From: Thermofilum adornatum
GTDB lineage: Archaea > Thermoproteota > Thermoprotei > Thermofilales > Thermofilaceae
DNA: 32,000 nucleotides
Reading direction: 5' to 3'
Assembly (NCBI RefSeq): GCF_000446015.1
Contig: NC_022093.1
Coordinates: 1,710,001-1,742,000 of the forward strand
Below the pieces are notes generated by a model. The model saw only the letters and a list, made by a program, of their open reading frames with translations. It did no database searches and was not told the origin of the DNA. The position numbers and the translations under genes were made by a program. Of this stretch, positions 2,044 to 22,217 are shown one piece after another (positions within the stretch are counted from its first letter, which is position 1; every line of letters starts with the position of its first letter).

Positions 2044-3396
2044 TTGTTGTTTCTTGGCAATATTTATTTCCGCGTGGATGTTAAAATATCTGTGCCAAGA
2101 TTTGCTGATTTGCTTGTAGAGGAGGTCAGGAGGAAGAGGGAAGAACTTGCACGTGTGATTGGTGGGGAAGGCGACCTCAGGAACTATTACGGCGAGCTTC
2201 TTAGGAGGGTCTGGTTGAGCGACTTGTCTCAGGACAAGGTTGACGGACGGGTTTATGGGGTTGATAGTAGCTGTGACGATATAGATGTTGTTGGGGGCGG
2301 CTCTATTCTTATTTCTAGGGCAATCGCTCTGAGTGTGGGTGGCAACGAGGTTAGGAAGCTGAGACTGGACGCGTTTTTCCCCAGGGATATCCGGGACCAA
2401 GAGGAGCTGAAAAGGCTCATGCGGGAGCACCTCGAGCACCTTGCTGGGCTGGAGGCTGTCGAGAGAGGGGCGGAGACCGTGCTTATTGATGGCTCTCTCT
2501 ATGCGAGGATGACGCATGTACTGCGCGAGATAAATATTGATGGCTACGAGGACTTCATGTTTGAGTATATCGAGACTTATGCGGGTTTTTTAAGGGAGGC
2601 TTTAAAGAGGAATGTAGCGGTAGTTGGTGTAAGTAAGGATTCGAGGTCCACAGTGCTCAAGGAGGAGCTCTTGATGCTTAAGCTCCGAGAATTAGTGGCA
2701 AGCCTTGAGCCTTCTGTTCGGGAGACTGTTCTCGGCCTGTTCGGGGAGATCAAGCGGCGTCCCCGCGAAGCGCTGGAGGGCTTGAGGCACTTGCTGAAGT
2801 CTGGGGTCTCGATGGAAGTATACGAGTTGTTTAGGAACGCTACCAGTGGGGCTCCAGACAGCAAGATTATTTTTTCTGCTGGTCTTGGCAGAGGGCTGAG
2901 CCTGCCTTTGCAGTTGAGCATCGAGAAGGTTTCCGCTAGGGTCTTTGAGCTCGTTCTCTCTGATTCCCACGAGAAGCTCCTAGGCCTCTTGGAGAGGGTT
3001 TTCCCTGCAACCAGGGACAAGTTGGGAGATTCTTTTCAAGAGAAGGCTTCGAGGATGATAGAGGCGTTAAAGAGTTACCCGCCTATAGCTGTTACATATG
3101 TTGTTCTAGAGCAGGGAGACGACCCTATCAGAGTCGATGTTGCACTAAAGGGAAAGTATCCCACGCGTGGCGAGTCTCATTTCCTAGAGGCTATCCCAGA
3201 GGAGATGCTGAAAGGCCTGAAGAGCATAGCTGGCCTCTATGCTGGTCCAAGAAGCTACAATGTACTGTTGCTCGAGGCAGACAAGAGGGTTAGGACTACA
3301 CATGACACGATGGAGATGTACCACAGGCTGATTATGCAGGAGCTTAAAACACTGGTGATGCATTCACGTAGCGATAGAAGATTCTTCTATCCCTAA
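2044..3396 (+). CDS. nurA: NurA 5'-3' exo/endonuclease
   Basis: NurA-type motifs are present: VYGVDSS (catalytic Asp region), VLIDGSLY and VVGVSKDSRS. It sits next to herA-mre11-rad50. The start is uncertain: TTG 2044, GTG 2074 or GTG 2092. An AATATTTATTT TATA-like stretch at about 2059-2069 would favour 2092. Confidence 0.85.
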   Translation: MLFLGNIYFRVDVKISVPRFADLLVEEVRRKREELARVIGGEGDLRNYYGELLRRVWLSDLSQDKVDGRVYGVDSSCDDIDVVGGGSILISRAIALSVGGNEVRKLRLDAFFPRDIRDQEELKRLMREHLEHLAGLEAVERGAETVLIDGSLYARMTHVLREINIDGYEDFMFEYIETYAGFLREALKRNVAVVGVSKDSRSTVLKEELLMLKLRELVASLEPSVRETVLGLFGEIKRRPREALEGLRHLLKSGVSMEVYELFRNATSGAPDSKIIFSAGLGRGLSLPLQLSIEKVSARVFELVLSDSHEKLLGLLERVFPATRDKLGDSFQEKASRMIEALKSYPPIAVTYVVLEQGDDPIRVDVALKGKYPTRGESHFLEAIPEEMLKGLKSIAGLYAGPRSYNVLLLEADKRVRTTHDTMEMYHRLIMQELKTLVMHSRSDRRFFYP

Positions 3397-3586
3397 CCAA
3401 AATGGCATCGACTTTCCAGTAAGTATTCATGCTCGGAGTAGTTCTTCTAGCTGTCAAGTATAGTTTGTTTCTTAACGGCTCTCTGTCTTCCCTTACATGT
3501 TTCACAATTCTTTCGATACTTATAGCCTCCAAAACGTCACGTAGTTTTTCTAGCCCTTTCTTCTTTGTTTCCATTTTAGATTTCAT
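3344..3586 (-). CDS. hypothetical small basic protein (weak call)
   Basis: An 80-aa ORF in the nurA-herA spacer with a K/E/R-rich helical-looking N-terminal half (KGLEKLRDVLEAISIERIVKHVREDRE). Its last ~17 codons overlap the nurA 3' end convergently. The opposite-strand ORF 3429..3662 is S/L-rich shadow. No family recognised. Confidence 0.3.
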   Translation of the reverse strand: MKSKMETKKKGLEKLRDVLEAISIERIVKHVREDREPLRNKLYLTARRTTPSMNTYWKVDAILVRDRRIFYRYVNASPVF

Positions 3587-3740
3587 AGAACAAGCTCGCC
3601 TTTTTTGGATACTTTCGGTTTTATCTTGGTGGAAGCTTAATAAGGACTATAATGTGGGGTAATATTGTGGAAAAAGAGGCTACCAAGAGAATGGGTTATC
3701 CTTTAAGAGATAAGGTGGATTTTTCCCGAGGGAACCAGGC

Positions 3741-5342
3741 ATGGCTGAGTTAAAGCAGGTTGGGAGGATTGTCGAGGAGTCTACGCCTGAGACTTTCATA
3801 TTTGTAACGAGCAAGGATGTGTATCCAGCGAAGTACGAGTATGTCCTTGTCAAGTCCCGGGAGCTCGTTAATGGGGAGGAGAGGGAAGTAGACGTATTGT
3901 GCCAGGTTGTTGGTGTAGTTAGTAGGAGCACCGCATATACTAGCAAGCTGGACTTCGAAAGCCTGGAGAGGATTTACCAGGCAGGGATAGACGACTCTAA
4001 CCTTCTATGTGTTGCCAGGAGCCTTGGGTTTATCGCGGAGGAAAATGGGAGGAAAACGGTTCTCGTGCCTAGACGGGCGTTTTTCCCGGGGAACCCAGTC
4101 TATCTCGCGCCAGACGGGTTTGTGAGGGAGTTTTTCTCTTATCCGTCGGAAGAGGGGATACACATTGGAAGCCTTGTAAGTAGGACAAGTGTAGACGTGT
4201 ATCTCTCAGTGAACGGGTTCAGGAGACACGTAGCCGTCATAGCCCAGACTGGAGCTGGCAAGTCATATACGGTGGGAGTTATTCTTGAGGAACTGCTGAG
4301 GCTCGGGGCGACTGCCGTCGTGATTGACCCGCATGCTGACTATGTTTTCCTTAGCAGGGACAGGGAGATGAGGAGGCACGAGGCTTCAGACAGGGTTCTG
4401 GTTTTTAGGAATCCTAACAGTACTGGTAGATATGACCCCAGCCAGCTAGACAACGTCCACGAGCTCACGGTGAAGTTTGCAGACCTAGAGCCCGAAGATA
4501 TTGCAAGGATCGCCGGGATACCTGAGAAGTGGAGCAACATTAGGAGCGTCATTAGGAGCGCTGTTGGGGAGCTGAGAAAAACCTCTAATAGCTATACATT
4601 GGACGATTTATTAGAAGAGCTACAGAGACTCATGAAGACCGAAAAGGCCAAGAAAGCAGCAAGCGCTGAGGCTGCCTATAGCCGACTAGTTAGGCTAAAA
4701 AAGTTCAAGGTGTTTGGGAGCGTTACGACGTCTGTCAGGGACGAGATCCTGAAGCCGGGGCACATAAGCGTTATAGACCTCTCGGGCCTCAACGACGCTA
4801 GCCAGGACTACATAGTGAGCTGGGTCCTAGAAGAAATATACCGCCTCAGGTATTCGGGCGAATTCAGGTACCCAGTCTTCATAGTAGTAGAGGAGGCACA
4901 CAGGTTTATTCCAAACAAGTCCCTTAACCGTTCAACCATGTCTTCGGACGTCATCAGGATGATTGCCGCCGAGGGCAGAAAGTTCGGGGTATTCTTGATA
5001 CTGGTCACCCAGAGGCCCAGCAAGATAGACGCGGACGCCCTGAGCCAGTGCAACAGCCAGATAATACTGAGGATAACAAACCCAGCGGACCAGAAGGCTG
5101 TCGCAGAGGCAAGCGAGAGGCTTGGGGCAGAGCTCATGAAGGACCTGCCCGGGCTCAATGTTGGAGAGGCTGTTATTGTGGGTGAGCTTACACGTGTTCC
5201 CGTAATTGTCAAGGTTAGGCATAGGCGAACCAGGGAGGGCGGCGCAGACATAGACCTCGTAGAGGAGCTGAGGAAGGCTAGGAGCGAGATAGGGTTAAAG
5301 ATTAGTAGGGGTAGGAGTGAAGACCTGTTCTCAGAGGTCTAG
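3741..5342 (+). CDS. herA: HerA hexameric DNA helicase/translocase (FtsK-HerA superfamily)
   Basis: Walker A AQTGAGKSYT and Walker B VFIVVEEAHRFIP are present. There is an N-terminal HAS-barrel-length region. The gene lies immediately upstream of mre11 with a 3-nt gap. Confidence 0.92.
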   Translation: MAELKQVGRIVEESTPETFIFVTSKDVYPAKYEYVLVKSRELVNGEEREVDVLCQVVGVVSRSTAYTSKLDFESLERIYQAGIDDSNLLCVARSLGFIAEENGRKTVLVPRRAFFPGNPVYLAPDGFVREFFSYPSEEGIHIGSLVSRTSVDVYLSVNGFRRHVAVIAQTGAGKSYTVGVILEELLRLGATAVVIDPHADYVFLSRDREMRRHEASDRVLVFRNPNSTGRYDPSQLDNVHELTVKFADLEPEDIARIAGIPEKWSNIRSVIRSAVGELRKTSNSYTLDDLLEELQRLMKTEKAKKAASAEAAYSRLVRLKKFKVFGSVTTSVRDEILKPGHISVIDLSGLNDASQDYIVSWVLEEIYRLRYSGEFRYPVFIVVEEAHRFIPNKSLNRSTMSSDVIRMIAAEGRKFGVFLILVTQRPSKIDADALSQCNSQIILRITNPADQKAVAEASERLGAELMKDLPGLNVGEAVIVGELTRVPVIVKVRHRRTREGGADIDLVEELRKARSEIGLKISRGRSEDLFSEV

Positions 5343-5345
5343 GAC

Positions 5346-6515
5346 ATGATTAGGGTCGTCCACACGGCTGACAATCACTTGGACCCAAAGTTCAGCTTCC
5401 TCGGCGCTAAGAGGTTTGAGCGTAGACAGGACTTCTTCAACTCTTTCCGCAGAGTTGTAGAGTTTGCCCTAGAGAGAAAGGCCCACATTGTTCTGGTTTC
5501 GGGAGACCTCTTCGACTCTGTCAATCCGAGAAACCCGATAAGGACGCAGGTCATAAGGCTATTCAGGAGGCTGTCCAGCGAGGGCATCAGGGTCTTCATG
5601 ATTGCTGGCAACCATGACATGCCGAGGAGCCTGGAGGAGGGAATGTCTCCACTACAGGAAATAGAGGCCGCCGGCTATGCGAGGTTCTTCTCGAAGACCA
5701 GCGAGGTCGAGGTCGAGCACCTCTACATTGAGGGTTTAGACGTAGCTATAACAGGCCTGAGCTATGACCACACTGTTGGGCTAGACGAGAACCCGCTGAA
5801 AAAGAACAATGTAAAGCTTCCAGATGAGGGCGACGTCGCGATAGCCATGCTTCACTACAACTTTAGCGGGATAAGTGTACCGCCGAGCTGGAGGGCCCCC
5901 AAGGTTTCATGGGAAGACATCCCAGAAAACTACCGCTACGTTGCTCTTGGACACGTGCATACAAGCATGACCCTTCCACTCAGGGGAAAGACCCTTGTAG
6001 CTTATCCTGGAAGCACAGAGAGGAGAAGCTTCCAAGAAGAGGGAGACGAGGCAAAGGGCTTCCTATATGTAGAGCTAGGCCATGACTCTCTGCCAAGGGC
6101 AGAGTTTGTCCCAGTGCCAACGAGGCCAATGAAGACTGTAAAGGTAACGCTGAGCGAAGAAACGGAGGACCCGTTGAGAGAAATCGTGTCCAGGCTACCG
6201 GCACCCAACAAAGACCTTTTGCTTCGACTCGTCGTTGACGGAACGCTTCCCTTAAACAAGGTGTCTAGGTACAACAGGGCGGCACTGCTTAGAGAACTCG
6301 AGGAAAGGTTCTTCGCCGCCACAATTGATGATATTGACCTCAAGTGCACCATGCAGAAAATAGTCAGCATGGGCAACGAGGTGAAGAGCCCGATAGAGGC
6401 CTTTGAGGAAGCAGTAAGGGAGCTACTTTCTAAGGCGGAGGGCGAAGAAAGGGAAGTCTTCAACTTGGCGCTTGAAATTGGTAGAAAGGTTCTAGAGGAG
6501 AGCGGGGCATGGTGA
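5346..6515 (+). CDS. mre11: Mre11 nuclease (calcineurin-like phosphoesterase)
   Basis: Phosphoesterase motifs HTADNHLD, VSGDLFD, IAGNHD and GHVH are present. The stop overlaps the rad50 start (ATGGTGA). Confidence 0.92.
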   Translation: MIRVVHTADNHLDPKFSFLGAKRFERRQDFFNSFRRVVEFALERKAHIVLVSGDLFDSVNPRNPIRTQVIRLFRRLSSEGIRVFMIAGNHDMPRSLEEGMSPLQEIEAAGYARFFSKTSEVEVEHLYIEGLDVAITGLSYDHTVGLDENPLKKNNVKLPDEGDVAIAMLHYNFSGISVPPSWRAPKVSWEDIPENYRYVALGHVHTSMTLPLRGKTLVAYPGSTERRSFQEEGDEAKGFLYVELGHDSLPRAEFVPVPTRPMKTVKVTLSEETEDPLREIVSRLPAPNKDLLLRLVVDGTLPLNKVSRYNRAALLRELEERFFAATIDDIDLKCTMQKIVSMGNEVKSPIEAFEEAVRELLSKAEGEEREVFNLALEIGRKVLEESGAW

Positions 6516-9022
6516 CAATAATAAGTTTAAAGGCAAACAATTTCCGTAGACTGAACTTCAAGGATCCCCTCTACTTCCCAAAAGGCCTAACCATAATTAG
6601 GGGCAGAAACGAGGCCGGAAAATCAACAATACTTGAGGCTATCCTCTTTGGGATCTACGGCGACTTCAACATCCTTAGGGAGATCCGCGGAGACCGCCAA
6701 GCCAAGCTACTCGACGTGGTAAACCATGCCTCGAACCGTGCAAAAGTAGAAGTAACATTCGAGGTCGAGGGTAGAAAGTTTAGGGTTGAGAGGATTATAG
6801 AGAAAGTGGGAGAAAACGCTAGGCAAGTTGACGCAAAACTCTTCGACGTAACAAGCGGCAACGAAAGGCTATTGGCGTCGGGAACGCAGAAAGTCAACGA
6901 AGAGATAGTCAAGCTCATCCGTGTAGATTGGAGGGAAATGATTGCCTCCAACGTTATAGCCCAGAAGGACCTCGAGAGGCTTATACGTCTAGGGAAAACC
7001 GACAGAGAAAAAATCATAAACATGTTCATGGGGCTTGAAAGCTACAACAAGGCGATCGAGACACTTCAAGAAGAAAAAAGAACAAAAAAAGCTGAACTCG
7101 AGAAAAAAGAGACAGAAAAGAAGGCTCTAGAAGATTATTTAAGGACACTGATGAGCCTAGAAGAGGAACTGAAAAAGCATAGGGAAGAGCTCCAAGCTAT
7201 TGAGCAGATTTTACCCAGCCTTGAAGAAGAAGAGAAGAGGCTAAGCGAGACGGTAAAATATCTCGAAGACCTATACAAAAAGCTTCGTGAAAGGAAAAGT
7301 CTGCTCGAGAAGAAAAAATACCTAGAAGAGAACCTGAAAAGAAATGAAGAAGAACTCTCGGAGACAAGGAAGAAAATTGAATTAGCAAAGCAGGGGCTTG
7401 CAGAAGCAGAAGAAAAGCTTAAGCAGCTCCAGCAAGAAAAAGAAGTGCTCGAAAAAGAACTTACCCAGACAGAAAAAGAGTATGAAAATGGGCAGAGCCT
7501 ACTAGCCAAGATAAGCGAATTGTGGAATACTCTTGAAGAGTCGAAAAGGGAACTAGAGAACCTTGAAGATGAGATCTCGATTATTTCCGAGAAGCTTAAA
7601 ACGATCGAAAAAGTAAACACAGAAATAGTTCAAATAAGCGAAGAGCTGAAGAACACCGAGGAAAAAATACGAAAAGTAAGGATACCACCCTTATACATTT
7701 ATGCCTCAATCGGGATAGCTCTTCTGGGACTCTTCTTATCTATATTCAGTTTGCCAGCCGGCCTGGCCATACTTTTTTCAAGCTTGGTACCTCTATTCGT
7801 TGGCCAACAAAACAAGCAAAAGGCTTTACTATACCTGCAGGACAAAAAATCAAAGCTTCTGAGCCAGAGAAGCGCCATGGAAGGTGAACTCAGGCTTTTA
7901 GAAAGAGAAAGAGAAGAATACGAGAAACTACTAAAGAGAAAGGCTGAATTAGAGGAAAAGCAGAAACAGATCCTCGGCCAGCTCAAAAGCGTGGCTAAAC
8001 TTGAAGACGCAGTGGGCCTCGAACAATATGTTGCTAGGCTACAGGAAGAGGTAGAAAAGCTCCAGGAAAAAACCGAAGAAGTGAGAAAACACTATCAACA
8101 AATATTGTCTGAGACATCAAAAACAGACCAAAACATACATAATCTCAAGAAAACTCTAGAAGACCTTTCTATAAACGAAAACGCTAGGAACAAAGACATA
8201 GCAAACATACGCGAACAACTCAAAGCAGTCGAAGAACAATATGCATCTATTCACGTCCCGCAACCACCATTCGAGATAGAGGGTCTCTTGATGCCCGTAA
8301 GCGAGAACGATGTCGAAGACGTGGAAGCACTCTTGCATGTCTACCATCGAGAATACGAATCTAAGACACGTGAAGTTGCAAGCAAAAAAGCCGAGAAAAA
8401 CAGGCTTGAACAATATATTAGACAAGCAGAGGAACAGCTGAAAGAGCTTCCAAAAATAAAGGAAGACCTAGACAGGCTCGAAAAAGATGTCAAAAACCTT
8501 AAGATAGAGGTCGAGGCCCGTGAAAAAGCCATACAAGTTTTGAGGGACATATCCTCGAAGAGGAGGAGCATGTTTGCGCCAAGCGTAGAGCAAAACATGA
8601 ACTGGATCGTTTCATACGTGACTGGAGGAAGATACAAGGCAGTAAAGATAAACCCAGACAACTACGACATAGAGGTCTACGACGCGGAGGCAGGCAGGTG
8701 GATGCGCCGCGACATATACAGCGGCGGCACCAATGACCAGATGCTTCTCGCAATGAGAATCGCATTTACGCTGGCTCTTCTACCCTCAGCGAAGGGAACC
8801 TACCCCCGGTTCTTGTTCCTAGACGAGCCGCTCGGCTCCTCTGACCAGGAGAGACGCCAACAAATAGTTAAACTCCTCGCCAACGAGCTGACCCGTGTAT
8901 TCGACCAAGTCTTCCTAATTACACACGTCGAGATAGAGGAGCCTCCAAACTCCACTTTGATCGAGCTTGTAGACGGCAAAGTGGCAGAAACAAGAAGGAT
9001 AACCTCACAAGAAGAAGGCTAG
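6509..9022 (+). CDS. rad50: Rad50-like SMC-type ATPase with an atypical apex (no zinc hook)
   Basis: N-terminal Walker A GRNEAGKST. C-terminal signature-like YSGGTNDQ, Walker B FLFLDEPLGSSD and H-loop ITHV. Two long K/E/L heptad-rich arms. No Cys anywhere; a hydrophobic segment occupies aa 395-432 at the midpoint. Confidence 0.88.
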   Translation: MVTIISLKANNFRRLNFKDPLYFPKGLTIIRGRNEAGKSTILEAILFGIYGDFNILREIRGDRQAKLLDVVNHASNRAKVEVTFEVEGRKFRVERIIEKVGENARQVDAKLFDVTSGNERLLASGTQKVNEEIVKLIRVDWREMIASNVIAQKDLERLIRLGKTDREKIINMFMGLESYNKAIETLQEEKRTKKAELEKKETEKKALEDYLRTLMSLEEELKKHREELQAIEQILPSLEEEEKRLSETVKYLEDLYKKLRERKSLLEKKKYLEENLKRNEEELSETRKKIELAKQGLAEAEEKLKQLQQEKEVLEKELTQTEKEYENGQSLLAKISELWNTLEESKRELENLEDEISIISEKLKTIEKVNTEIVQISEELKNTEEKIRKVRIPPLYIYASIGIALLGLFLSIFSLPAGLAILFSSLVPLFVGQQNKQKALLYLQDKKSKLLSQRSAMEGELRLLEREREEYEKLLKRKAELEEKQKQILGQLKSVAKLEDAVGLEQYVARLQEEVEKLQEKTEEVRKHYQQILSETSKTDQNIHNLKKTLEDLSINENARNKDIANIREQLKAVEEQYASIHVPQPPFEIEGLLMPVSENDVEDVEALLHVYHREYESKTREVASKKAEKNRLEQYIRQAEEQLKELPKIKEDLDRLEKDVKNLKIEVEAREKAIQVLRDISSKRRSMFAPSVEQNMNWIVSYVTGGRYKAVKINPDNYDIEVYDAEAGRWMRRDIYSGGTNDQMLLAMRIAFTLALLPSAKGTYPRFLFLDEPLGSSDQERRQQIVKLLANELTRVFDQVFLITHVEIEEPPNSTLIELVDGKVAETRRITSQEEG

Positions 9023-9028
9023 CCCTTT

Positions 9029-9400
9029 CTAGGCTGTCTCTAGTTTTTTCTTTATGTCTCTTAGTGTGTATAGTAGTACTCCTAGACGTGTGTCTTTGTT
9101 GAATAGGACTGCTAGGTATCCTATTTGGCCTAGCTTGGTGTATATTATTCCCGAGCCGTCTGGGGCGTTGACCGTGATCCATTCTGCCTCACCCTTTCCC
9201 AGCTCCGTGCTAGCCCTGTTGCCCACCTCGCTCAACACAGCTGTCAGCGCTACAACCTTCTCCTCCAGCTCCTTGTCAGCCAGACTACTAAACAAAGGCA
9301 AACCATCACTACTCGAAACAACAAAACCCTCAACACCACCAACCCTAGCCACGCCTTCAACAACACGCCTAACCTCCTCAACACTCACATAAACCACCAT
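9029..9400 (-). CDS. Roadblock/LC7 (MglB-like) domain protein
   Basis: 123 aa with the Roadblock pattern GVEGFVVSSSDGLPLFS..., then a helix, then ITVNAPDGSGIIYTKLGQIGYLAVLFNKDTRLGVLL. The start overlaps the upstream gene's end by 16 nt. Confidence 0.75.
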   Translation of the reverse strand: MVVYVSVEEVRRVVEGVARVGGVEGFVVSSSDGLPLFSSLADKELEEKVVALTAVLSEVGNRASTELGKGEAEWITVNAPDGSGIIYTKLGQIGYLAVLFNKDTRLGVLLYTLRDIKKKLETA

Positions 9401-9939
9401 ACTTTTAGCTCCTTGGCCAATTCGTTTAAGAATGTCCTGGTGTATATGTCGACTAGCCTGTTATAGACCTCTTCACTGATCCCTGTGGCTTTCTTGAAAA
9501 CTCTCTGCCTTATTATTTCGTAGCTGAGAATCATGACGGCGAGATTCCACCCAAAGACCTTTGCAAGCATAACTATATGGCTCGGTTCACCGTCGCTTGT
9601 CTTCAGAGTCTCAGATAGAAAAACAGAGACCAAGGGAGATAGAGAGTGCAAGGGGAAACCTCCCCTAACAAGCAATAGGCCAATCCTAGCGACATCTAGG
9701 CAGTGACGCTCGCCGTAATCACTCTGGAAAATAGTTGTGAACCAATATTCAAAAAGCCTCTTGGATCTTGTCTCGTCTAGCCCGGCCTTTTTCAAGGCTT
9801 CTGACAAATCATTGTTTTTTGATATCGAGTCTAGTGCTGTCCTCACTATTTCTTCTTTCCTTGCAGAAATTGCTTTGTATATTTCCTTTAAGTTTTTCTT
9901 AACGTCTTCTGTTATACCCAAGAGAAGAGAACTCTTCAC
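9385..9939 (-). CDS. sensor-globin-fold (globin-coupled-sensor/protoglobin-like) single-domain protein, apparently haem-less
   Basis: LLLGITEDVKKNLKEI..., then FQSDYGERHCLDVARIGLLLVRGGFPLHSL, resembles the GCS pattern LGLTeeD....F.G.yDe.y...R.rIG..H.riGlP..wy. The His position reads Leu in my by-eye alignment. GTG start. Confidence 0.5.
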   Translation of the reverse strand: MKSSLLLGITEDVKKNLKEIYKAISARKEEIVRTALDSISKNNDLSEALKKAGLDETRSKRLFEYWFTTIFQSDYGERHCLDVARIGLLLVRGGFPLHSLSPLVSVFLSETLKTSDGEPSHIVMLAKVFGWNLAVMILSYEIIRQRVFKKATGISEEVYNRLVDIYTRTFLNELAKELKVWWFM

Positions 9940-10135: not shown

Positions 10136-10717
10136 CTAAGCCAGTTCTTTGTCTATATTCCTGTAAATTTTCTCAGCTGTAAGCTTCAATAGACGATCAT
10201 AACTTCCACTAGTGATACCTAGGCTGTTCGCGAAAACCTCTTCATCTATCGTAAAGTAACTCTCCATCATGTTTGACAGCAACCATCCACATGCTTGTAT
10301 GATTGCCTTTACCTGATTGGAATTTGAATGGCTATGCCTTACAATTTCTTGAGAAAGAATGAACATAAGCATGATAAGCATCCTAGGCGGGATGCCTATC
10401 TTTATTAGATCAAAAGTCAACCTGGCGATTCTAACTGTATGTTCTTCGCTGAAGTCTCCTTTAAACATCTCATCTAATATGTTTTCCAAAATACCTCTAA
10501 CGTATCCAGGTTCAAGCCCCCTCTCGCGAAATATTCGGGCTAACTCAGAGTTCTGCAGAAGGGAATACATACAGGCATGAACAATTTCATCCTTACTTAA
10601 ATTGACCATATGAGACATATCGTGGAGAGTTGTCTTAGTCTGATTATTTATCCCGAGTAGAAGACTCGAGTATAACCCATTTTTTAGTATTTTCTCTCGC
10701 AAACTCATGAATCTCAC
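10136..10717 (-). CDS. sensor-globin-fold protein, paralogue of 9385..9939
   Basis: It shares blocks with its neighbour: SLLLGI, F(K/Q)(G/S)D(F/Y)xEEH..(V)RIARL....I(K)IGIPP, CGW..SNMMESY, and LGITSGSYDRLLKL versus TGISEEVYNRLVDI. No His at the position I align with the proximal His. Confidence 0.5.
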   Translation of the reverse strand: MRFMSLREKILKNGLYSSLLLGINNQTKTTLHDMSHMVNLSKDEIVHACMYSLLQNSELARIFRERGLEPGYVRGILENILDEMFKGDFSEEHTVRIARLTFDLIKIGIPPRMLIMLMFILSQEIVRHSHSNSNQVKAIIQACGWLLSNMMESYFTIDEEVFANSLGITSGSYDRLLKLTAEKIYRNIDKELA

Positions 10718-12170: not shown

Positions 12171-12884
12171 TTATTTTCCAAAGAAGAGCTTCTCTATCTC
12201 TATGTGCCTAAATTCTTCGGCTGAGCCTTCTCTGAGTATTCTCCCGCCCACAAGGACAGAGGCTTTGTCTGCTACCTCGAGGGCTCTCGCAACGTTTTGC
12301 TCCACGACTAGAACGGCTATGTTCATTGTTTCCTTTATTTCTCTGACCTTTCGCATAAGAGTTATCCCGGCTTTTGGCGAAAGACCGGCTGTAGGCTCGT
12401 CTAGTAGTAAGACCTTGGGGTTCGTCATGAGTGCGCGGGCCACTGCAAGCATCTGCCTCTCTCCGCCGCTCAGTGTCTTTGCTTTTTGGTGTCTTCTCCT
12501 CTTTATCTCGGGGAAGAGCTCGAAGATGTTCTCGATGTCTTCCTTGATTTTTGGGTCTCTGCCCCTTATAAAGGCGCCGACGTAGAGGTTTTCCTCTACG
12601 GTGAGGTTTGGGAAAACGTTGTCTAGCTGTGGAGAGTAGCTTACCCCTAGCTTGACTATTTCTGATGGCTTTTTGCCAGTTATCTTTGTGCCGTCGAGAT
12701 AGATATCTCCACTATGTATGGTCGCTATCCCAAAAACCGAGTTTAGGAGCGTGGTTTTCCCTGCACCGTTTGGGCCAAGGATAGCCAGTATTTCTCCCTT
12801 TGAAAGCTCGAGGCTTACCCCCTGGATAACCCTCATTTTGCCGTATCCAGAGTATAGTTCGCTTATTTTAAGCATTGGCATCAC
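12171..12884 (-). CDS. livF: LIV-type (HAAT family) ABC transporter ATP-binding protein, LivF-like
   Basis: Walker A GPNGAGKTT, signature LSGGERQML, Walker B LLLDEPTAGLSP. 17-nt overlap with the upstream ATPase gene. Confidence 0.9.
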   Translation of the reverse strand: MMPMLKISELYSGYGKMRVIQGVSLELSKGEILAILGPNGAGKTTLLNSVFGIATIHSGDIYLDGTKITGKKPSEIVKLGVSYSPQLDNVFPNLTVEENLYVGAFIRGRDPKIKEDIENIFELFPEIKRRRHQKAKTLSGGERQMLAVARALMTNPKVLLLDEPTAGLSPKAGITLMRKVREIKETMNIAVLVVEQNVARALEVADKASVLVGGRILREGSAEEFRHIEIEKLFFGK

Positions 12885-13653
12885 CTAAATACGCCTCGAT
12901 AACCCTCTTATCTGACACAACTTCGTCCGGCTTCCCCTCTGCCAATAGCTGGCCGTTGTGGAGGACATAGACGTAGTCCACGTACTGCATCATCACCTCT
13001 ATTCTATGCTCCACTATTAGGAATGTGTAGCCGTTAGCATTAAGCTCCCTCACAAGCCTAAACAGGTTGTGTGCCGCTGTGGCCTCTACGCCGGCTGCCG
13101 GCTCGTCTAGCAAGAATACTCTTGCAGGCGTCATAAGGCCCCTAATGGTTTCTATGAGCTTCATGTGTGCCCCGCTCAGCTCTGAAACCCTTACGTTTGC
13201 ATATTCTAGGAGGCCAAACCTATTTAGTAGTTCGATGGCCTTTTTTGCAAGCGCTTTCTCTTCTTCCTGCCAAGTCTCAGGGTTGATAGCTTTCAATGGA
13301 TGCTCGCCTTTCTGGCCGAAGGGGGTCAACAGGAGGTTTTCGAGGACTGTTAGGGACTTGAACAAGCGTGGTATCTGGAAGGTCCTCACTATGCCCTTTG
13401 CAAACACCTCGTTGGGGTTTAGGCCGTCTATCCTCTCGCTGTTGCCTCCATTGTGGTACCAGACCTCCCCCTTGTCAGGCACATAGAAGCCAGAGACCAC
13501 GTTGAAGAGTGTCGTCTTTCCACTGCCGTTGGGGCCTATAAGGCCGACAACGCCTCTCTCTGGCACGCTTATACTTACATCTTGCAAAGCTACGATCCCT
13601 CCAAAAGTCTTAGTTACATTGTCTACCTCTAGGATGTTAGCCACTTTTCTCAC
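12868..13653 (-). CDS. livG: LIV-type ABC transporter ATP-binding protein, LivG-like
   Basis: The TKTFGGIVAL motif, Walker A GPNGSGKTT, Walker B FLLDEPAAGV and C-terminal VIEAYLG are typical of LivG. Confidence 0.9.
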   Translation of the reverse strand: MRKVANILEVDNVTKTFGGIVALQDVSISVPERGVVGLIGPNGSGKTTLFNVVSGFYVPDKGEVWYHNGGNSERIDGLNPNEVFAKGIVRTFQIPRLFKSLTVLENLLLTPFGQKGEHPLKAINPETWQEEEKALAKKAIELLNRFGLLEYANVRVSELSGAHMKLIETIRGLMTPARVFLLDEPAAGVEATAAHNLFRLVRELNANGYTFLIVEHRIEVMMQYVDYVYVLHNGQLLAEGKPDEVVSDKRVIEAYLGDANA

Positions 13654-14683
13654 CCTTTACCTCTTCTTCATATACCTTCCATGCAGGTGTCTCTATCTTT
13701 CCCTCCTTCAGGATTCCCTGAGGACGGAAAAGGAGGACAACAACGATCAAGAAGCCTACCAGGAATCCTCTGATATAGTCGGGTGAGATAATTGTTATGC
13801 CGAGCTGTGGCGTCACAAAGGCGAGGAGCCTGTCAAAGAGAGTAAAGATAGCGGCACCTAGAAGCGAACCTTCAAGGTTGCCCATACCTCCAAGAATTAT
13901 CATTGCCCAAACATTGAATGTAACTGCAGGAACAAATATGTCTGGATTAATTGAGCTATAGTAAAAGGCTAAGAGTACACCGGCCATACCAGCGAAACCC
14001 GACCCAATAAAGAGAACCATTGCCTTAAGCCTTGGTACGTGTTTGCCTAGGCACAGTGCAGCTATCTCGTCATCTCTTACTGCCCTTAGTGTTCGCCCGA
14101 GTGGCGAATTGTAGAGACGGCGAAATACAAAGTAAGTAAGTGCTAGAAGAGCCAATACGATAAATAGGTAGAGCAATGCCCTCAGCGTTGGATTAGGTAC
14201 CCAGGCAAATGGGTGCGGAATAGACATTATGCCCTTGCTTCCTCCTAGTGGCTCATAGTGTTGGACAAAGATCCTGAAAAGCTCGCCTGTACTAAGTAAT
14301 GTGAAGCCTACAAATGCCGGTCCAACCCTTATAATTGGATAGCTAAGGAGATACCCTACTATGCCGGCTACCAGAAAAGCTAAAACCAATGATGCTACCA
14401 GTAGTCCTATATCGAGAATAGGATTCTTCGTAGCTAGTTCGCCTAGAAGCACAATTCCCTCGATATCAAAGGGTGAAACTTTAGATGTATCTACACCGCT
14501 AAGCAAAAGGAAAAGGTAAACCGTCAAAGCTGCACCGATATAGGCTCCGAGGCCATAGAAAAACACCTTTCCAAAGTTTGTCACACCGCTAGTGCCAGAC
14601 TCGAAGTTCAGGCTTACAGCGAGTATACCATATATCCCTAAGAACGTAAGCCAGCTTATCAGGAAACCAACCACATCTATCAT
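13637..14683 (-). CDS. livM: LIV-type ABC transporter permease, LivM-like
   Basis: A polytopic membrane protein of 348 aa. It holds the LivM position in the operon and has the TNFGKVFFYGLGAY-type N-terminal block. Confidence 0.85.
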   Translation of the reverse strand: MIDVVGFLISWLTFLGIYGILAVSLNFESGTSGVTNFGKVFFYGLGAYIGAALTVYLFLLLSGVDTSKVSPFDIEGIVLLGELATKNPILDIGLLVASLVLAFLVAGIVGYLLSYPIIRVGPAFVGFTLLSTGELFRIFVQHYEPLGGSKGIMSIPHPFAWVPNPTLRALLYLFIVLALLALTYFVFRRLYNSPLGRTLRAVRDDEIAALCLGKHVPRLKAMVLFIGSGFAGMAGVLLAFYYSSINPDIFVPAVTFNVWAMIILGGMGNLEGSLLGAAIFTLFDRLLAFVTPQLGITIISPDYIRGFLVGFLIVVVLLFRPQGILKEGKIETPAWKVYEEEVKGEKSG

Positions 14684-14689
14684 CTGGCT

Positions 14690-15655
14690 TCACCCCCTTT
14701 TTCTCCTATACCTGAATGGTAAACCACCAGCTGCGCCAAGAGGTGGAAAAGCAATCAAGATAACAATCAATGTTACAAATGTCAAGAAGGTTCTAAAGCT
14801 AGTTGGGACACCGAACCAAGCATTCAGGAAACTAATGCCGACATTCTCTATGAGGGCAATCACGAATGCTCCAATGCCTGTCTTAACCAATGAGACCAGC
14901 CCCCCGATAAATGCAACGGTGAAGACTTGTAGAATCATAGCGTCGCCGGTTGTAGGCGTGACTGTTCCCGAGAAACTTGTCCAAATTGCTCCACCTATCC
15001 CGACTATGCCGCCCGTTATCAGCCATGTAACAGTTATTACCTTGTTCCTGGGTATCCCAGAAATCTCGGCCAAGACCGGGTTGTCTGCAACGGCGCGCAT
15101 CGCTTTTCCCAGCGAGGTTTTATTCAGGAAAAAGTAGAGAAATACAACCATGCCGACAGCTGCCACAAGAACCGCAATGAAGCCGCCAGACAACCTTAGG
15201 CCCCCTATCGTGATTTCTGGTACGTCATTATAGAGTATTCTCCCATACGAGACAAAGTTGACCCCGCTAAGTGCGTGTGCTATGTCAGCCAACATGTAGA
15301 GGACATAGTTGTACATTATCCAGAGACCCATCGACGCTATCATTATGAGAGACATTGAAGCTCCTCTATCACTAAGGGGTTTAAAGACAAAAATGTGACT
15401 AGCAACAGCAAGCGTCCCAGAAACGAGGAACGCCAGTAGGCACGATAAGAGAAGGCTCTGGTTGCCAAGCAAGCCATTAAGAAATACGGCTACATAGGCT
15501 CCGTAGGTTATAAAATTGGCGTGGGCAAAGTTCATGACCCGCGTCGTTCGATAGCTAAGGGTAAGGGGTACGGCAAAGAGTAGATAGAAGAAAGAGTAAA
15601 AAAGAAAATTTATTATTGTGTTTTGGTCAAGTGGTAGCATATATTGTTGCTTCAC
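14690..15655 (-). CDS. livH: LIV-type ABC transporter permease, LivH-like
   Basis: A polytopic membrane protein with VMNFAHANFITYGAY (LivH-type N-terminal block). It follows the binding-protein gene by 1 nt. The start could instead be the internal Met (MLPLDQ). Confidence 0.85.
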   Translation of the reverse strand: MKQQYMLPLDQNTIINFLFYSFFYLLFAVPLTLSYRTTRVMNFAHANFITYGAYVAVFLNGLLGNQSLLLSCLLAFLVSGTLAVASHIFVFKPLSDRGASMSLIMIASMGLWIMYNYVLYMLADIAHALSGVNFVSYGRILYNDVPEITIGGLRLSGGFIAVLVAAVGMVVFLYFFLNKTSLGKAMRAVADNPVLAEISGIPRNKVITVTWLITGGIVGIGGAIWTSFSGTVTPTTGDAMILQVFTVAFIGGLVSLVKTGIGAFVIALIENVGISFLNAWFGVPTSFRTFLTFVTLIVILIAFPPLGAAGGLPFRYRRKRG

Positions 15656-15656
15656 C

Positions 15657-16949: not shown

Positions 16950-17169
16950 GTGTTCTCCCCCTTGGGGGATGTAGTACAGCGATATGTAGGCTATATATGT
17001 CTTTGCCAAATATCTTCGCAGAAAATTGCAAAACAAAGGTAAGAATTTTGAAAAAAGTGTCAAGAACATCTTTGAATATGTGTAAAACTTACCATTAGAA
17101 TATGCATATCAGTAATGCTTATAAAAGAGCCCCTAAAATTGCCGATAAATATATTTAGCGAAACTTTAT

Positions 17170-19840: not shown

Positions 19841-19877
19841 ACGGTTGTAATAATAATTTCTTATTCAATAAAAAAAG

Positions 19878-19884
19878 GGTTAAC
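19878..19884. promoter_or_regulatory. GGTTAAC half-site abutting the TATA-like tract of the binding-protein gene promoter
   Basis: The minus strand reads GTTAACC-CTTTTTTTATTGAATAAG.. with ATG at 19840, 38 nt from the motif end. Confidence 0.5.
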
Positions 19885-19910
19885 TACTATTTCTGGGCTC
19901 TATCTGCCTT

Positions 19911-20927: not shown

Positions 20928-20963
20928 CAAAATACTCTGGGAAAAATCCTATAAAATAAAAAC

Positions 20964-20970
20964 GGTTAAC
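20964..20970. promoter_or_regulatory. GGTTAAC half-site abutting the TATA-like tract of the KAS III-like gene promoter
   Basis: The minus strand reads GTTAACC-GTTTTTATTTTATAGG.. with ATG at 20927, 37 nt from the motif end. Confidence 0.5.
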
Positions 20971-20983
20971 TATTTCCCGAAAC

Positions 20984-22213: not shown

Positions 22214-22217
22214 TTTC

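What the first reader, a model, noticed from the sequence alone, without database searches (positions are those of the whole stretch)
7691..7804. Rad50 without a zinc hook: the coiled-coil apex is a hydrophobic helical hairpin and the protein has no cysteine
The 837-aa protein has Rad50 head motifs and two long heptad-rich arms, and it sits in the canonical mre11-rad50 coupling. Established Rad50 biology places a CxxC zinc hook at the midpoint of the arms to join two complexes. This protein contains no Cys at all. At the exact midpoint (aa 395-432) it reads LYIYASIGIALLGLFLSIFSLPAGLAILFSSLVPLFVG, two hydrophobic helices separated by an SLPAG turn. Basic residues flank the segment (KIRKVR before, QQNKQK..KKSK after). 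That is the signature of a membrane-inserted or re-entrant hairpin, or else a zinc-independent hydrophobic dimerisation apex. A membrane-tethered Mre11-Rad50 beside the FtsK-like HerA pump and NurA would imply end resection or DNA handling at the membrane. I do not know of a described precedent.
Basis: partly seen in the sequence, partly recalled or inferred. Interest (0 to 1): 0.8.

Follow-up and report, generated by a model that had tools for sequence, protein, structure and literature searches.

The report
Membrane-anchored Rad50 lacking the zinc hook
This Thermofilum Rad50 DNA-repair ATPase has no zinc hook at the tip of its coiled-coil arms but a two-helix hydrophobic hairpin that looks like a membrane anchor, and the same swap defines a large, almost unstudied Rad50 subfamily in many archaea and some bacteria.

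Summary
Window 6509-9022 (+) encodes an 837-aa, cysteine-free Rad50. Residues 392-435 are a 44-residue stretch without any charged residue, in a protein that is 36% charged. The stretch sits at the midpoint, exactly where relatives carry the CxxC hook.

It is not a one-off. About 68 homologue clusters, 69 GTDB loci, 119 Chloroflexota relatives and 123 of 127 full-length top representatives carry a hydrophobic centre. None has a hook. Head-domain similarity alone separates this group from hook-bearing Rad50s, so it is a distinct subfamily. Record titles place it in Thermofilaceae, Bathyarchaeia, Asgard, ANME-1, Aenigmarchaeota, Chloroflexota and Dictyoglomus.

mre11 lies directly upstream wherever upstream DNA is held and reads as mre11. 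nurA-herA often precede it.

Membrane-hairpin hallmarks are present family-wide:
- net positive flanks on both sides;
- an aromatic belt at both ends;
- a central Pro/Gly turn;
- conserved hydrophobicity with poor sequence conservation;
- a helix-turn-helix apex in AlphaFold2 models.

Best reading: a two-helix membrane hairpin replaces the hook and tethers Mre11-Rad50 to the membrane. This is inferred, not shown.

The closest precedent is B. subtilis SbcE/YhaN, which has a hydrophobic, insoluble central domain and no CxxC. Whether Thermofilum also has a hook-bearing Rad50 remains unresolved.

The parts
2044..3396 (+). nurA, the first gene of the cluster. The start codon is uncertain: TTG at 2044 or GTG at 2077.
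   Evidence: Pfam NurA PF09376, E = 2.3e-12. The same position is occupied by nurA in L001-L006 and many GTDB loci.
3741..5342 (+). herA, a HAS-barrel plus FtsK-like hexameric ATPase.
   Evidence: Pfam DUF87/HerA, E = 9.6e-46. NCBIfam helicase_HerA 223 bits, below the curated cut-off.
5346..6515 (+). mre11 nuclease. It overlaps rad50 by 7 nt.
   Evidence: Pfam Metallophos, E = 2.4e-14. NCBIfam Mre11_Sulfo 102 bits. The phosphoesterase motifs DNH, GDLFD, GNHD and GHVH are visible in the translation.
6509..9022 (+). rad50 of the hookless subfamily with a hydrophobic apex: 837 aa, no Cys.
6509..7036 (+). N-terminal lobe of the ATPase head (aa 1-176). It holds Walker A GRNEAGKST (aa 32-40) and the Q-loop Q152.
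   Evidence: Invariant columns G32, G37, K38 and Q152 in A1 and A2. PDB Rad50 heads match aa 10-197, E = 2e-14.
7037..7672 (+). Ascending coiled-coil arm (aa 177-388), about 31 nm if fully helical.
   Evidence: AlphaFold2 helices 177-363 and 366-388.
7682..7813 (+). Hydrophobic apex (aa 392-435), 44 residues without D/E/K/R. It replaces the zinc hook.
   Evidence: It aligns with the CxxC hook of relatives.
7688..7744 (+). Predicted transmembrane helix 1 (aa 394-412).
   Evidence: AlphaFold2 helix 394-412. Hessa 19-mer dG is -1.05 kcal/mol.
7745..7756 (+). Tight turn FSLP (aa 413-416). It would face the outside of the membrane.
   Evidence: Non-helical in the model. Pro or Gly lies in the central 12 residues in 58 of 64 family members.
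7757..7813 (+). Predicted transmembrane helix 2 (aa 417-435). It is continuous with the descending arm and only marginally hydrophobic in this protein.
   Evidence: AlphaFold2 helices 417-424 and 426-496. Hessa 17-19-mer dG is +2.5 to +3.0 here, but the family median for the second half is -1.8.
7814..8620 (+). Descending coiled-coil arm (aa 436-704).
   Evidence: AlphaFold2 helices 426-496, 501-580, 599-644 and 647-704.
8249..8302 (+). Conserved non-helical break in the descending arm (aa 581-598, HVPQPPFEIEGLLMPVSE).
   Evidence: Non-helical in the model. P584 is nearly invariant and the consensus reads PxPP....GL.
8621..9019 (+). C-terminal lobe of the head (aa 705-837): signature YSGGTNDQ (737-744), Walker B FLFLDE (768-773), D-loop PLGSSD, H-loop H806.
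   Evidence: Invariant S738, G739, G740, D772, E773, D779 and H806. PDB Rad50 C-lobes match aa 651-809.

Best explanation
The gene encodes a genuine Mre11-partnered Rad50 ATPase of a distinct subfamily. In this subfamily the CxxC zinc hook at the coiled-coil apex has been replaced by a helical hairpin of two hydrophobic helices joined by a 3-5-residue Pro/Gly turn.

Proposed mechanism:
- The hairpin inserts into the cytoplasmic membrane with both ends on the cytoplasmic side.
- The two roughly 30-nm arms hang into the cytoplasm and carry the ATPase head and Mre11.
- The hairpins of the two Rad50 protomers, held in the plane of the membrane and rich in Gly/Ala/Ser, probably pack into a four-helix bundle. 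That bundle would supply the constitutive apex linkage that zinc normally provides.
- The Mre11-Rad50 clamp, with the co-encoded HerA-NurA resection motor, would then work on DNA ends lying within a few tens of nanometres of the membrane.

Shown: Rad50 identity, absence of a hook, position and conservation of the hydrophobic hairpin, and operon linkage.

Inferred: membrane insertion, topology, dimerisation in the bilayer, and the biological purpose of the tether.
For: Identity:
- All catalytic head motifs are intact and invariant.
- phmmer finds P. furiosus, T. maritima and M. jannaschii Rad50 heads.
- The Foldseek top hit of the AlphaFold2 model is Chaetomium Rad50, 7zr1.
- The best NCBIfam match is Rad50 PRK03918.
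- mre11 overlaps the gene by 7 nt.

Apex:
- The hydrophobic hairpin sits in the hook columns of the alignment.
- The AlphaFold2 model (pLDDT 82) gives helix 394-412, turn 413-416, then a helix from 417 onwards.
- A Chloroflexota member, P0066, gives the same helix-turn-helix with the turn at residues 451/452.

Membrane hallmarks:
- The 44 uncharged residues have P of about 3e-9 per site in this protein.
- The family median is 41.5 uncharged residues.
- Net charge is about +2 within 6 residues on both flanks.
- Pro or Gly is central in 58 of 64 members.
- Trp+Tyr make up 12% and 7.4% of the two ends, against 1.5% in the middle and 2.7% in the whole proteins. Gly+Ala+Ser make up 33%.
- Both halves have a Hessa 17-mer dG of 2 or less in 225 of 249 distinct apexes. 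The medians are -1.3 and -1.8.
- Only hydrophobicity is conserved, not sequence.

A subfamily, not an accident:
- One search shows a clean split between a hydrophobic centre and a CxxC hook.
- Head-only scores are 107-370 bits for hydrophobic-apex proteins with one outlier (P0108, 24.6 bits), against 104 bits or less for every hook protein.
- None of about 55 adequately complete GTDB loci has a hook.
- 119 of 119 Chloroflexota relatives have the hydrophobic centre.
- 123 of 127 full-length top representatives have it, and none has a hook.
- The nurA-herA-mre11-rad50 order is kept in distant archaea and in Dictyoglomus-like bacteria.

Outside support:
- SbcE/YhaN has a hydrophobic central domain. 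The protein is insoluble in E. coli and localises to the poles of competent cells (PMC2811018).
- The zinc hook acts as a constitutive dimerisation module that can be exchanged for an SMC hinge (PMC6969161, title and abstract).
Against: - No experiment and no dedicated topology predictor was available. Hydropathy scales and monomer AlphaFold2 cannot prove insertion.
- In this particular protein the second helix is only marginally hydrophobic (dG +2.5 to +3.0; it contains P429, S424 and S425). A half-spanning or re-entrant geometry is therefore possible.
- pLDDT at the apex is only 68-78.
- A membrane tether is hard to reconcile with access to breaks anywhere in the nucleoid if this is the cell's only Rad50.
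- SbcE-YFP foci in B. subtilis also form on the nucleoid and move from pole to pole within a minute. That is not obviously the behaviour of an integral membrane protein.
- Four close representatives have neither a hook nor a hydrophobic centre, so the apex is evolutionarily dispensable in some lineages.
Confidence: 0.68

Rival explanations
1. The segment is a peripheral, re-entrant (monotopic) hairpin. It dips into one leaflet, or into half of the tetraether monolayer, without crossing it. The tether would still form, but no loop would be exposed outside.
For: The second helix of the window protein is marginal on the Hessa scale (+2.5 to +3.0). Some family members have only 35 uncharged residues or fewer, and 67 of 316 distinct apexes have fewer than 33. 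The turn is only about 4 residues long.
Against: The family median of about 42 uncharged residues fits two 19-residue helices plus a turn. Both halves have negative median dG. Both predicted helices are 19 residues long. Aromatic residues concentrate at the two cytoplasmic ends and not at the turn.
Confidence: 0.14
2. The segment is a soluble, zinc-independent hydrophobic dimerisation or oligomerisation apex. Hairpins of two or more Rad50 molecules bury each other in a cytosolic helical bundle or micelle-like cluster, with no membrane involved.
For: The hook's job is dimerisation, and another dimerising module can do it (PMC6969161). Gly/Ala/Ser richness suits tight helix packing. SbcE foci lie on the nucleoid as well as at the poles.
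Against: About 40 consecutive residues carry no charge on any helical face, so a four-helix bundle would still expose a fully apolar surface. The sequence is hardly conserved while hydrophobicity is, which is the opposite of a specific protein-protein interface. Positive flanks on both sides and an aromatic belt are membrane-interface features. SbcE and its central domain are completely insoluble when overproduced.
Confidence: 0.1
3. The structural reading is right, but this is a specialised paralogue and not the housekeeping Rad50. It would be a membrane-tethered Mre11-Rad50-HerA-NurA module dedicated to DNA entering or leaving the cell (uptake, exchange, or destruction of invading linear DNA). 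A hook-bearing Rad50 elsewhere in the genome would do general break repair.
For: B. subtilis has both SbcC (with a hook) and SbcE. SbcE acts in transformation and sits at the uptake pole. Ted DNA-import loci of Pyrobaculum and Vulcanisaeta include rad50 and herA-like genes, and the authors propose that HerA-NurA make the transferred ssDNA (PMC9905601). All four proteins score far below the NCBIfam equivalog cut-offs, or in the case of NurA not at all.
Against: The gene sits in the one canonical nurA-herA-mre11-rad50 cluster. No Thermofilaceae hook-type Rad50 appeared among the 120 best hits, although hook-type proteins from unrelated phyla did. No second paralogue showed up in any MAG; the double hits are split genes. 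No DNA-transfer or defence genes flank the operon. Only one weak match was found in viral contigs.
Confidence: 0.2
4. The feature is an artefact: a frameshift, an insertion of foreign sequence or a mis-assembly that creates a spurious hydrophobic stretch in an otherwise normal Rad50.
For: None found.
Against: The reading frame is continuous over 837 codons. The identical architecture is present in hundreds of independent sequences from genomes and metagenomes. The protein length and the midpoint position match hook-bearing relatives.
Confidence: 0.01

Closest known systems
Canonical Rad50/SbcC of the Mre11-Rad50 (SbcCD) complex, for example P. furiosus Rad50 or E. coli SbcC
   Same: It has a bipartite ABC-ATPase head with all catalytic motifs and a long antiparallel coiled coil. 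The overall length is similar (about 800-880 aa in archaea). An Mre11 nuclease gene lies immediately upstream, clustered with herA and nurA. The closest sequence and fold matches are Rad50.
   Different: There is no CxxC zinc hook and no cysteine at all. A hairpin of about 42 uncharged hydrophobic residues occupies the hook position. The head carries subfamily-specific motifs: NEAGKST instead of NGAGKST, N[VI][VI]AQKDLE, IYSGGTNDQ and LDEPLGSSD. Scores fall far below the NCBIfam Rad50 equivalog cut-offs (134 against 700 bits).
Bacillus subtilis SbcE (YhaN) with its nuclease partner SbcF (YhaO); Krishnamurthy et al. 2010, PMC2811018
   Same: SbcE is an SMC-like, SbcC-like ATPase with arms of about 300 aa and no CxxC. 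It has a 'unique central domain' with a hydrophobic first half and a conserved proline, and that domain is completely insoluble when expressed. It pairs with a metallophosphoesterase nuclease. It acts in double-strand-break repair and transformation and localises at the cell pole of competent cells.
   Different: Homology of the apex, or membership of the same subfamily, was not tested because no YhaN sequence could be obtained. The sbcE locus is described with sbcF/yhaO and yhaM, and no nurA-herA is mentioned. B. subtilis also keeps a hook-bearing SbcC. The paper never interprets the central domain as transmembrane.
Other archaeal SMC-like ATPases without a hook: ASRP (archaea-specific SMC-related proteins) and arcadin-4
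   Same: They share the SMC/Rad50-type head and coiled coils. Weak NCBIfam matches were found: ASRP 91.8 bits and arcadin-4 53.5 bits.
   Different: Both matches are far below the cut-offs of 300 and 860 bits and weaker than the Rad50 match. Those families are not defined by an adjacent mre11, which this gene has.
Lamassu LmuB, a Rad50-derived SMC-like sensor of an anti-phage system
   Same: It is the best PADLOC match, 112 bits over the C-terminal half. It is a Rad50-like head on a coiled coil.
   Different: No LmuA or LmuC effector genes are present. The neighbours are Mre11, HerA and NurA. The family is chromosomal, with only one weak match in viral contigs.

Membership tests
Rad50 (ATPase of the Mre11-Rad50 complex) | ABC-ATPase head motifs: Walker A, Q-loop, signature SGG, Walker B D-E, D-loop, H-loop | tested here: met
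   GRNEAGKST 32-40, Q152, YSGGTNDQ 737-744, FLFLDE 768-773, D779 and H806. All are invariant in A1 and A2.
Rad50 (ATPase of the Mre11-Rad50 complex) | Head split into N and C lobes by a long antiparallel coiled coil | tested here: met
   The AlphaFold2 model has helices 177-388 and 426-704 joined by an apex hairpin. The Foldseek top hit is Rad50 7zr1, E = 5e-23.
Rad50 (ATPase of the Mre11-Rad50 complex) | Sequence similarity to experimentally characterised Rad50 heads | tested here: met
   phmmer against PDB gives P. furiosus, T. maritima and M. jannaschii Rad50, E = 2e-14 to 1e-11.
Rad50 (ATPase of the Mre11-Rad50 complex) | Co-encoded Mre11/SbcD nuclease partner | tested here: met
   mre11 at 5346-6515 overlaps rad50 by 7 nt. 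mre11 is directly upstream in related loci with enough upstream DNA, apart from the weak bacterial matches L075 and L077.
Rad50 (ATPase of the Mre11-Rad50 complex) | CxxC zinc hook (Pfam PF04423) at the coiled-coil apex | tested here: not met
   The protein has 0 Cys and no PF04423 hit. A hydrophobic hairpin occupies the hook columns.
Rad50 (ATPase of the Mre11-Rad50 complex) | Score above the NCBIfam equivalog cut-off | tested here: not met
   The best match is PRK03918 at 134.5 bits against a cut-off of 700. The matched stretches stop at aa 390 and resume at aa 434.
Two-helix transmembrane hairpin anchor (both ends cytoplasmic) | Two apolar helices of about 17-22 residues separated by a short turn | tested here: met
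   Model helices 394-412 and 417-435 with the turn FSLP. The family median is about 42 uncharged residues. The second helix is marginal in this protein.
Two-helix transmembrane hairpin anchor (both ends cytoplasmic) | Positive-inside charge bias on the cytoplasmic flanks and an aromatic belt at the interface | tested here: met
   Net charge is +2.2 and +1.8 within 6 residues of the two ends. Trp+Tyr are 12% and 7.4% at the ends against 1.5% in the middle.
Two-helix transmembrane hairpin anchor (both ends cytoplasmic) | Physical integration into the membrane | not testable with these tools
   This needs fractionation, accessibility or imaging experiments. No dedicated topology predictor was available.
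SbcE/YhaN family (B. subtilis) | SMC-like ATPase without CxxC, with a hydrophobic central domain and a conserved proline, paired with a phosphoesterase nuclease | tested here: met
   The architecture matches the published description (PMC2811018).
SbcE/YhaN family (B. subtilis) | Sequence homology to YhaN beyond the generic head | not tested
   No YhaN sequence was retrievable. The supplement is not held. Searches from the bacterial members P0066 and P0322 reached Chloroflexota and Dictyoglomus only. Pfam AAA_27 gives 22.8 bits against a cut-off of 22 over aa 23-50 only, and hook-type proteins hit it too.
Anti-phage SMC-like systems (Lamassu, Wadjet, Dnd/Pbe) | Cognate partner genes (LmuA/C, JetABD, DndE-H/PbeABD) adjacent | tested here: not met
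   PADLOC gives only generic head and coiled-coil matches (LmuB 112 bits). The neighbours are Mre11, HerA and NurA.

The most novel reading that the evidence does not exclude
In whole lineages the only Mre11-Rad50 complex, and with it the HerA-NurA end-resection machine, is physically anchored in the cytoplasmic membrane through the Rad50 apex. By record titles these lineages are Thermofilaceae, Bathyarchaeia, Asgard archaea, ANME-1, Chloroflexota and Dictyoglomota. Homologous-recombination end processing would then be a membrane-proximal process there, or would be mechanistically coupled to DNA crossing the membrane (import, export, or interception of invading linear DNA). The zinc hook, regarded as a universal Rad50 feature, would be dispensable and replaceable by dimerisation within the bilayer.
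Probability: 0.3. Interest if true: 0.85.

Novelty: new variant of a known kind. Interest (0 to 1): 0.68.

Why it matters
The CxxC zinc hook is treated as a hallmark of Rad50/SbcC. Current models of DNA-end tethering and of the ring-to-rod switch depend on an apex joined by zinc.

A large, phylogenetically coherent subfamily replaces the hook with what looks like a transmembrane hairpin. That shows the apex only needs to be held together, not how. It also implies a membrane-tethered double-strand-break machine in many archaea, including Asgard relatives of eukaryotes, and in several bacterial phyla.

It makes concrete questions testable. Where in the cell does end resection happen? Is resection coupled to DNA uptake or exchange systems? 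What is the unexplained 'central domain' of B. subtilis SbcE?

Cultured carriers exist: Thermofilum pendens, T. adornatum, Infirmifilum and Dictyoglomus turgidum. The natural absence of cysteine makes the protein convenient for accessibility mapping.

Tried and rejected
1. Literature. Ten full-text searches found no description of an archaeal Rad50 with a transmembrane or hydrophobic apex. Only SbcE/YhaN is a partial precedent. The ABC-ATPase classification by Krishnan et al. 2020 (PMC7544218), which might mention it, is not held.

2. Link to YhaN.
- The supplement with the SbcE central-domain alignment is not held.
- A homologue search from the bacterial member P0066 returned only Chloroflexota relatives.
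- tblastn of P0322 against plasmids found hook-type Rad50s in Bacillaceae megaplasmids, not YhaN.
- Three cluster look-ups gave no Bacillota names.
- Homology to SbcE is therefore untested.

3. A second, hook-bearing rad50 in the Thermofilum genome. No tool reaches a whole genome. The single genome-contig scan did not return the cultured Thermofilum genomes. Only indirect evidence against a second copy exists.

4. Gene order as a marker. The order nurA-herA-mre11-rad50 is not specific to the hydrophobic-apex type. The hook-type P0078 and the Pontibacillus locus L082 have it too.

5. Defence-system reading. PADLOC hits are generic, and a viral-contig scan gave one weak hit.

6. ASRP or arcadin-4 membership. 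The scores are far below the cut-offs.

7. The nurA-herA intergenic region. It has no tRNA, no Rfam family and no stable fold.

No query could be devised that would place a hypothetical Thermofilum hook-type Rad50 among the 120 best hits.


Full report
**Observation**

The window carries four genes on the + strand:
- nurA, 2044-3396;
- herA, 3741-5342;
- mre11, 5346-6515;
- an 837-codon ORF, 6509-9022.

The last ORF overlaps mre11 by 7 nt. It contains no cysteine.

The uncharged stretch is slightly longer than reported: aa 392-435, 44 residues, centred at 0.49 of the protein. The protein is 36% Asp/Glu/Lys/Arg, so such a run has a per-site probability of about 3e-9. The Kyte-Doolittle 19-residue mean peaks at 2.29 there and never exceeds 1.34 elsewhere. 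The best Hessa-scale 19-mer is -1.05 kcal/mol at aa 395, against +6.2 outside the apex. Both flanks are basic (KIRKVR before, QQNKQK...KKSK after).

**Identity of the protein**

Pfam finds AAA_23, SMC_N and SbcC_Walker_B. The best NCBIfam model is Rad50 PRK03918. It scores only 134 bits against a cut-off of 700, and the match breaks at aa 390 and resumes at aa 434, on either side of the hydrophobic stretch. phmmer against PDB chains returns the Rad50 heads of P. furiosus, T. maritima and M. jannaschii.

An AlphaFold2 model built on 49 homologues has mean pLDDT 82. It shows a bipartite head and a long antiparallel coiled coil. Its best Foldseek match in the PDB is the Rad50 of the Chaetomium MRN complex. 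Walker A, Q-loop, signature motif, Walker B, D-loop and H-loop are all present and invariant in alignments.

The closest database proteins (96-97% identity) are Rad50 of Thermofilum adornatum, so the window comes from a Thermofilum. The protein is a real Mre11-partnered Rad50 that fails one defining Rad50 feature, the zinc hook.

**Position of the hydrophobic segment**

I aligned 23 hydrophobic-apex proteins with 9 hook-bearing relatives. The hydrophobic hairpin falls in the same columns as the CPxC...RPL hook. Total lengths and midpoints agree: CxxC lies at about residue 405 of about 800, and the hairpin at about 392-435 of 837.

In the model the ascending arm ends at 388. A 19-residue helix (394-412) is followed by a four-residue turn (FSLP). 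A second helix starts at 417 and runs straight into the descending arm. pLDDT at the apex is 68-78.

A second model, for a 1004-aa Chloroflexota member, gives the same helix-turn-helix at its centre, with the turn at residues 451/452.

**A subfamily, not an oddity**

- The 120 best homologues fall into two exclusive classes. P0001-P0068, plus P0074 and P0108, have a hydrophobic stretch at the midpoint, 35-50 uncharged residues in most, and no CxxC. Nearly all the others have a midpoint CxxC and no hydrophobic stretch. P0101 has neither.
- Scoring only the two head lobes, hydrophobic-apex proteins reach 107-370 bits, including bacterial ones of 985-1269 aa. One outlier, P0108, scores 24.6 bits. 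No hook protein exceeds 104 bits. Apex type therefore follows head phylogeny.
- The subfamily has its own head signatures: NEAGKST, N[VI][VI]AQKDLE, IYSGGTNDQ and LDEPLGSSD.
- A scan of one genome per GTDB species returned 69 loci. All of the roughly 55 with an adequately complete gene have the hydrophobic centre and no hook.
- A search from a bacterial member gave 119 Chloroflexota relatives, all with the hydrophobic centre.
- A profile search of 1.84 billion representatives gave 2,622 hits at E <= 1e-30. Of the best 150, 127 are full length. Of these, 123 have the hydrophobic centre, none has a hook and 4 have neither.

Record titles and source names place the subfamily in:
- Thermofilaceae and Infirmifilum;
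- many Bathyarchaeia;
- MAGs labelled Nitrososphaeria;
- Asgard archaea (Thor-, Odin-, Baldr- and Promethearchaeota);
- ANME-1;
- Aenigmarchaeota;
- Chloroflexota, Dictyoglomus and a few other bacteria.

MAG labels should be read with caution.

**Genomic context**

mre11 is immediately upstream in related loci that hold enough upstream DNA, apart from the weak bacterial matches L075 and L077. The order nurA-herA-mre11-rad50 recurs in distant Thermoprotei, in Asgard MAGs and in Dictyoglomus-like bacteria.

Many soil Bathyarchaeia show only mre11-rad50 at the sensitivity used. The order is not specific to this subfamily, since hook-type genes have it too.

Nothing near the operon in the window suggests DNA transfer or defence. 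The neighbours are:
- a peroxiredoxin;
- a Roadblock/LC7 protein;
- two protoglobin-like ORFs;
- a TauE exporter;
- branched-chain amino-acid ABC transporters.

PADLOC gives only generic SMC-like and HerA matches. A viral-contig scan found one weak hit.

**Membrane hairpin or soluble apex?**

Across 64 family members with a long uncharged stretch:
- the median stretch is 41.5 residues;
- the six residues on each side carry a net charge of about +2;
- the central 12 residues contain Pro or Gly in 58 cases.

Across 100 distinct apexes:
- Trp+Tyr make up 12% and 7.4% of the first and last seven residues, against 1.5% in the middle and 2.7% in the whole proteins;
- Gly, Ala and Ser together make up a third of the segment.

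In 249 distinct apexes of at least 33 residues, the best 17-mer of each half has median dG of -1.3 and -1.8 kcal/mol. Both halves are at 2 or below in 225 of them. The sequence itself is barely conserved.

These are the properties of a helical hairpin in a bilayer with both ends in the cytoplasm. They are not those of a specific soluble interface.

One caveat applies to this particular protein. Its second helix is only marginally hydrophobic (+2.5 to +3.0), so a re-entrant geometry cannot be excluded.

**Mechanism proposed**

The hairpin anchors the Rad50 apex in the membrane. The two arms are about 210 helical residues each, roughly 31 nm. They hold the ATPase head and Mre11 in the cytoplasm.

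Two hairpins, confined to the membrane plane and rich in small residues, would pack together. That packing would give the constitutive apex linkage normally made by zinc. This is plausible because the hook acts as a constitutive dimerisation module that an SMC hinge can replace (PMC6969161, title and abstract).

The purpose of the tether is unknown. The candidates are:
- handling of DNA ends at the membrane during DNA uptake or exchange;
- interception of entering linear DNA;
- a different spatial organisation of repair.

Two published observations make a membrane-proximal role conceivable. SbcE and SbcF sit at the DNA-uptake pole of competent B. subtilis. Ted DNA-import loci of Pyrobaculum and Vulcanisaeta include rad50 and herA-like genes (PMC9905601). 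All of this is inference.

**Comparison with what is known**

The nearest described case is B. subtilis SbcE/YhaN. It lacks CxxC and has a 'unique central domain' whose first half is hydrophobic and which contains a conserved proline. That domain, and the whole protein, are completely insoluble in E. coli. SbcE partners the nuclease SbcF (PMC2811018). That paper never proposes a membrane span.

I could not obtain a YhaN sequence, so membership of the same subfamily is untested. I found no paper describing the archaeal proteins or the breadth of the subfamily. One relevant classification paper is not in the library, and automatic database annotation may already flag the helices.

I therefore rate this a new variant of a known kind. 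It is a Rad50 by every test except the hook.

**Open point**

I could not determine whether Thermofilum also has a hook-bearing Rad50. The indirect evidence against it is weak:
- no such Thermofilaceae protein appeared among the 120 best hits, although hook-type proteins of unrelated phyla did;
- no paralogue appeared in any MAG.

This decides between 'the housekeeping resection machine is membrane-tethered' and 'a specialised second system'. It is the first thing to check.

Noticed in passing
window 8249-8302 (Rad50 aa 581-598); partner position about aa 234-238 (window 7208-7222): There is a conserved non-helical, proline-rich break (HVPQPPFEIEGLLMPVSE; family consensus PxPP....GL, P584 nearly invariant) in the descending coiled-coil arm. 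It lies roughly opposite a conserved LPxLE in the ascending arm and may be an elbow or joint of the arms.
   Followed up: partly
window 3397-3740; minus-strand ORF 3344-3586: A 345-bp gap separates nurA from herA here, whereas the two genes overlap in related loci (L001-L005). An 80-aa antisense ORF (MKSKMETKKKGLEKLRDVLEAISIERIV...) lies in the gap and overlaps the nurA end. It has no Pfam or PADLOC hit, and the RNA has no stable fold (z = +1.5).
   Followed up: partly
Rad50 head, window 6602-6628 (Walker A) and 8717-8845 (signature motif to D-loop): Subfamily-specific head motifs travel with the hydrophobic apex: NE[AS]GKST instead of NG[AS]GKST, N[VI][VI]AQKDLE, IYSGGTNDQ and LDEPLGSSD. They work as a sequence tag for the subfamily, since the genome scan built on two of them returned only hookless genes.
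   Followed up: yes
representatives P0342, P0343, P0349, P0365 (987-995 aa): Four close relatives with the NEAGKS Walker A have neither a CxxC hook nor a hydrophobic centre. Their midpoint is ordinary charged helix. This is a third apex state within the subfamily.
   Followed up: partly
window 9029-9400 (-); also L003 385-771: A Roadblock/LC7 (MglB-like) gene lies immediately downstream of rad50 on the opposite strand. Another lies about 3 kb upstream of nurA in a distant archaeal locus. This may be coincidence.
   Followed up: no
window 9385-9939 (-) and 10136-10717 (-): Two neighbouring ORFs give weak protoglobin matches (E about 1e-5, near the Pfam cut-off).
   Followed up: no
L027-L051 and other soil Bathyarchaeia loci: In many soil Bathyarchaeia the hookless rad50 is preceded by mre11 only. 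No nurA or herA was detected upstream with the window proteins as phmmer queries at 1e-5.
   Followed up: partly
L081 (Priestia megaterium pFDU301A) and L082 (Pontibacillus plasmid): Hook-type Rad50 genes sit on roughly 1-Mb Bacillaceae 'plasmids'. L082 is annotated as a full nurA-herA-mre11-rad50 cluster. L081 has no annotation. This is an archaeal-style resection module in Bacillota.
   Followed up: partly
window 2044-9022: All four proteins score far below the NCBIfam equivalog cut-offs, or not at all: Rad50 134 against 700, Mre11 102 against 500, HerA 223 against 970, NurA no hit. The whole module, not only Rad50, is a divergent lineage.
   Followed up: partly
window 12171-17069 and 18311-24564 (-): There are two separate Liv-type branched-chain amino-acid ABC transporter gene sets (binding protein, two permeases, two ATPases each). 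Between and after them lie a 2-hydroxyacid dehydrogenase, a FabH-like gene and two alpha/beta hydrolases.
   Followed up: no
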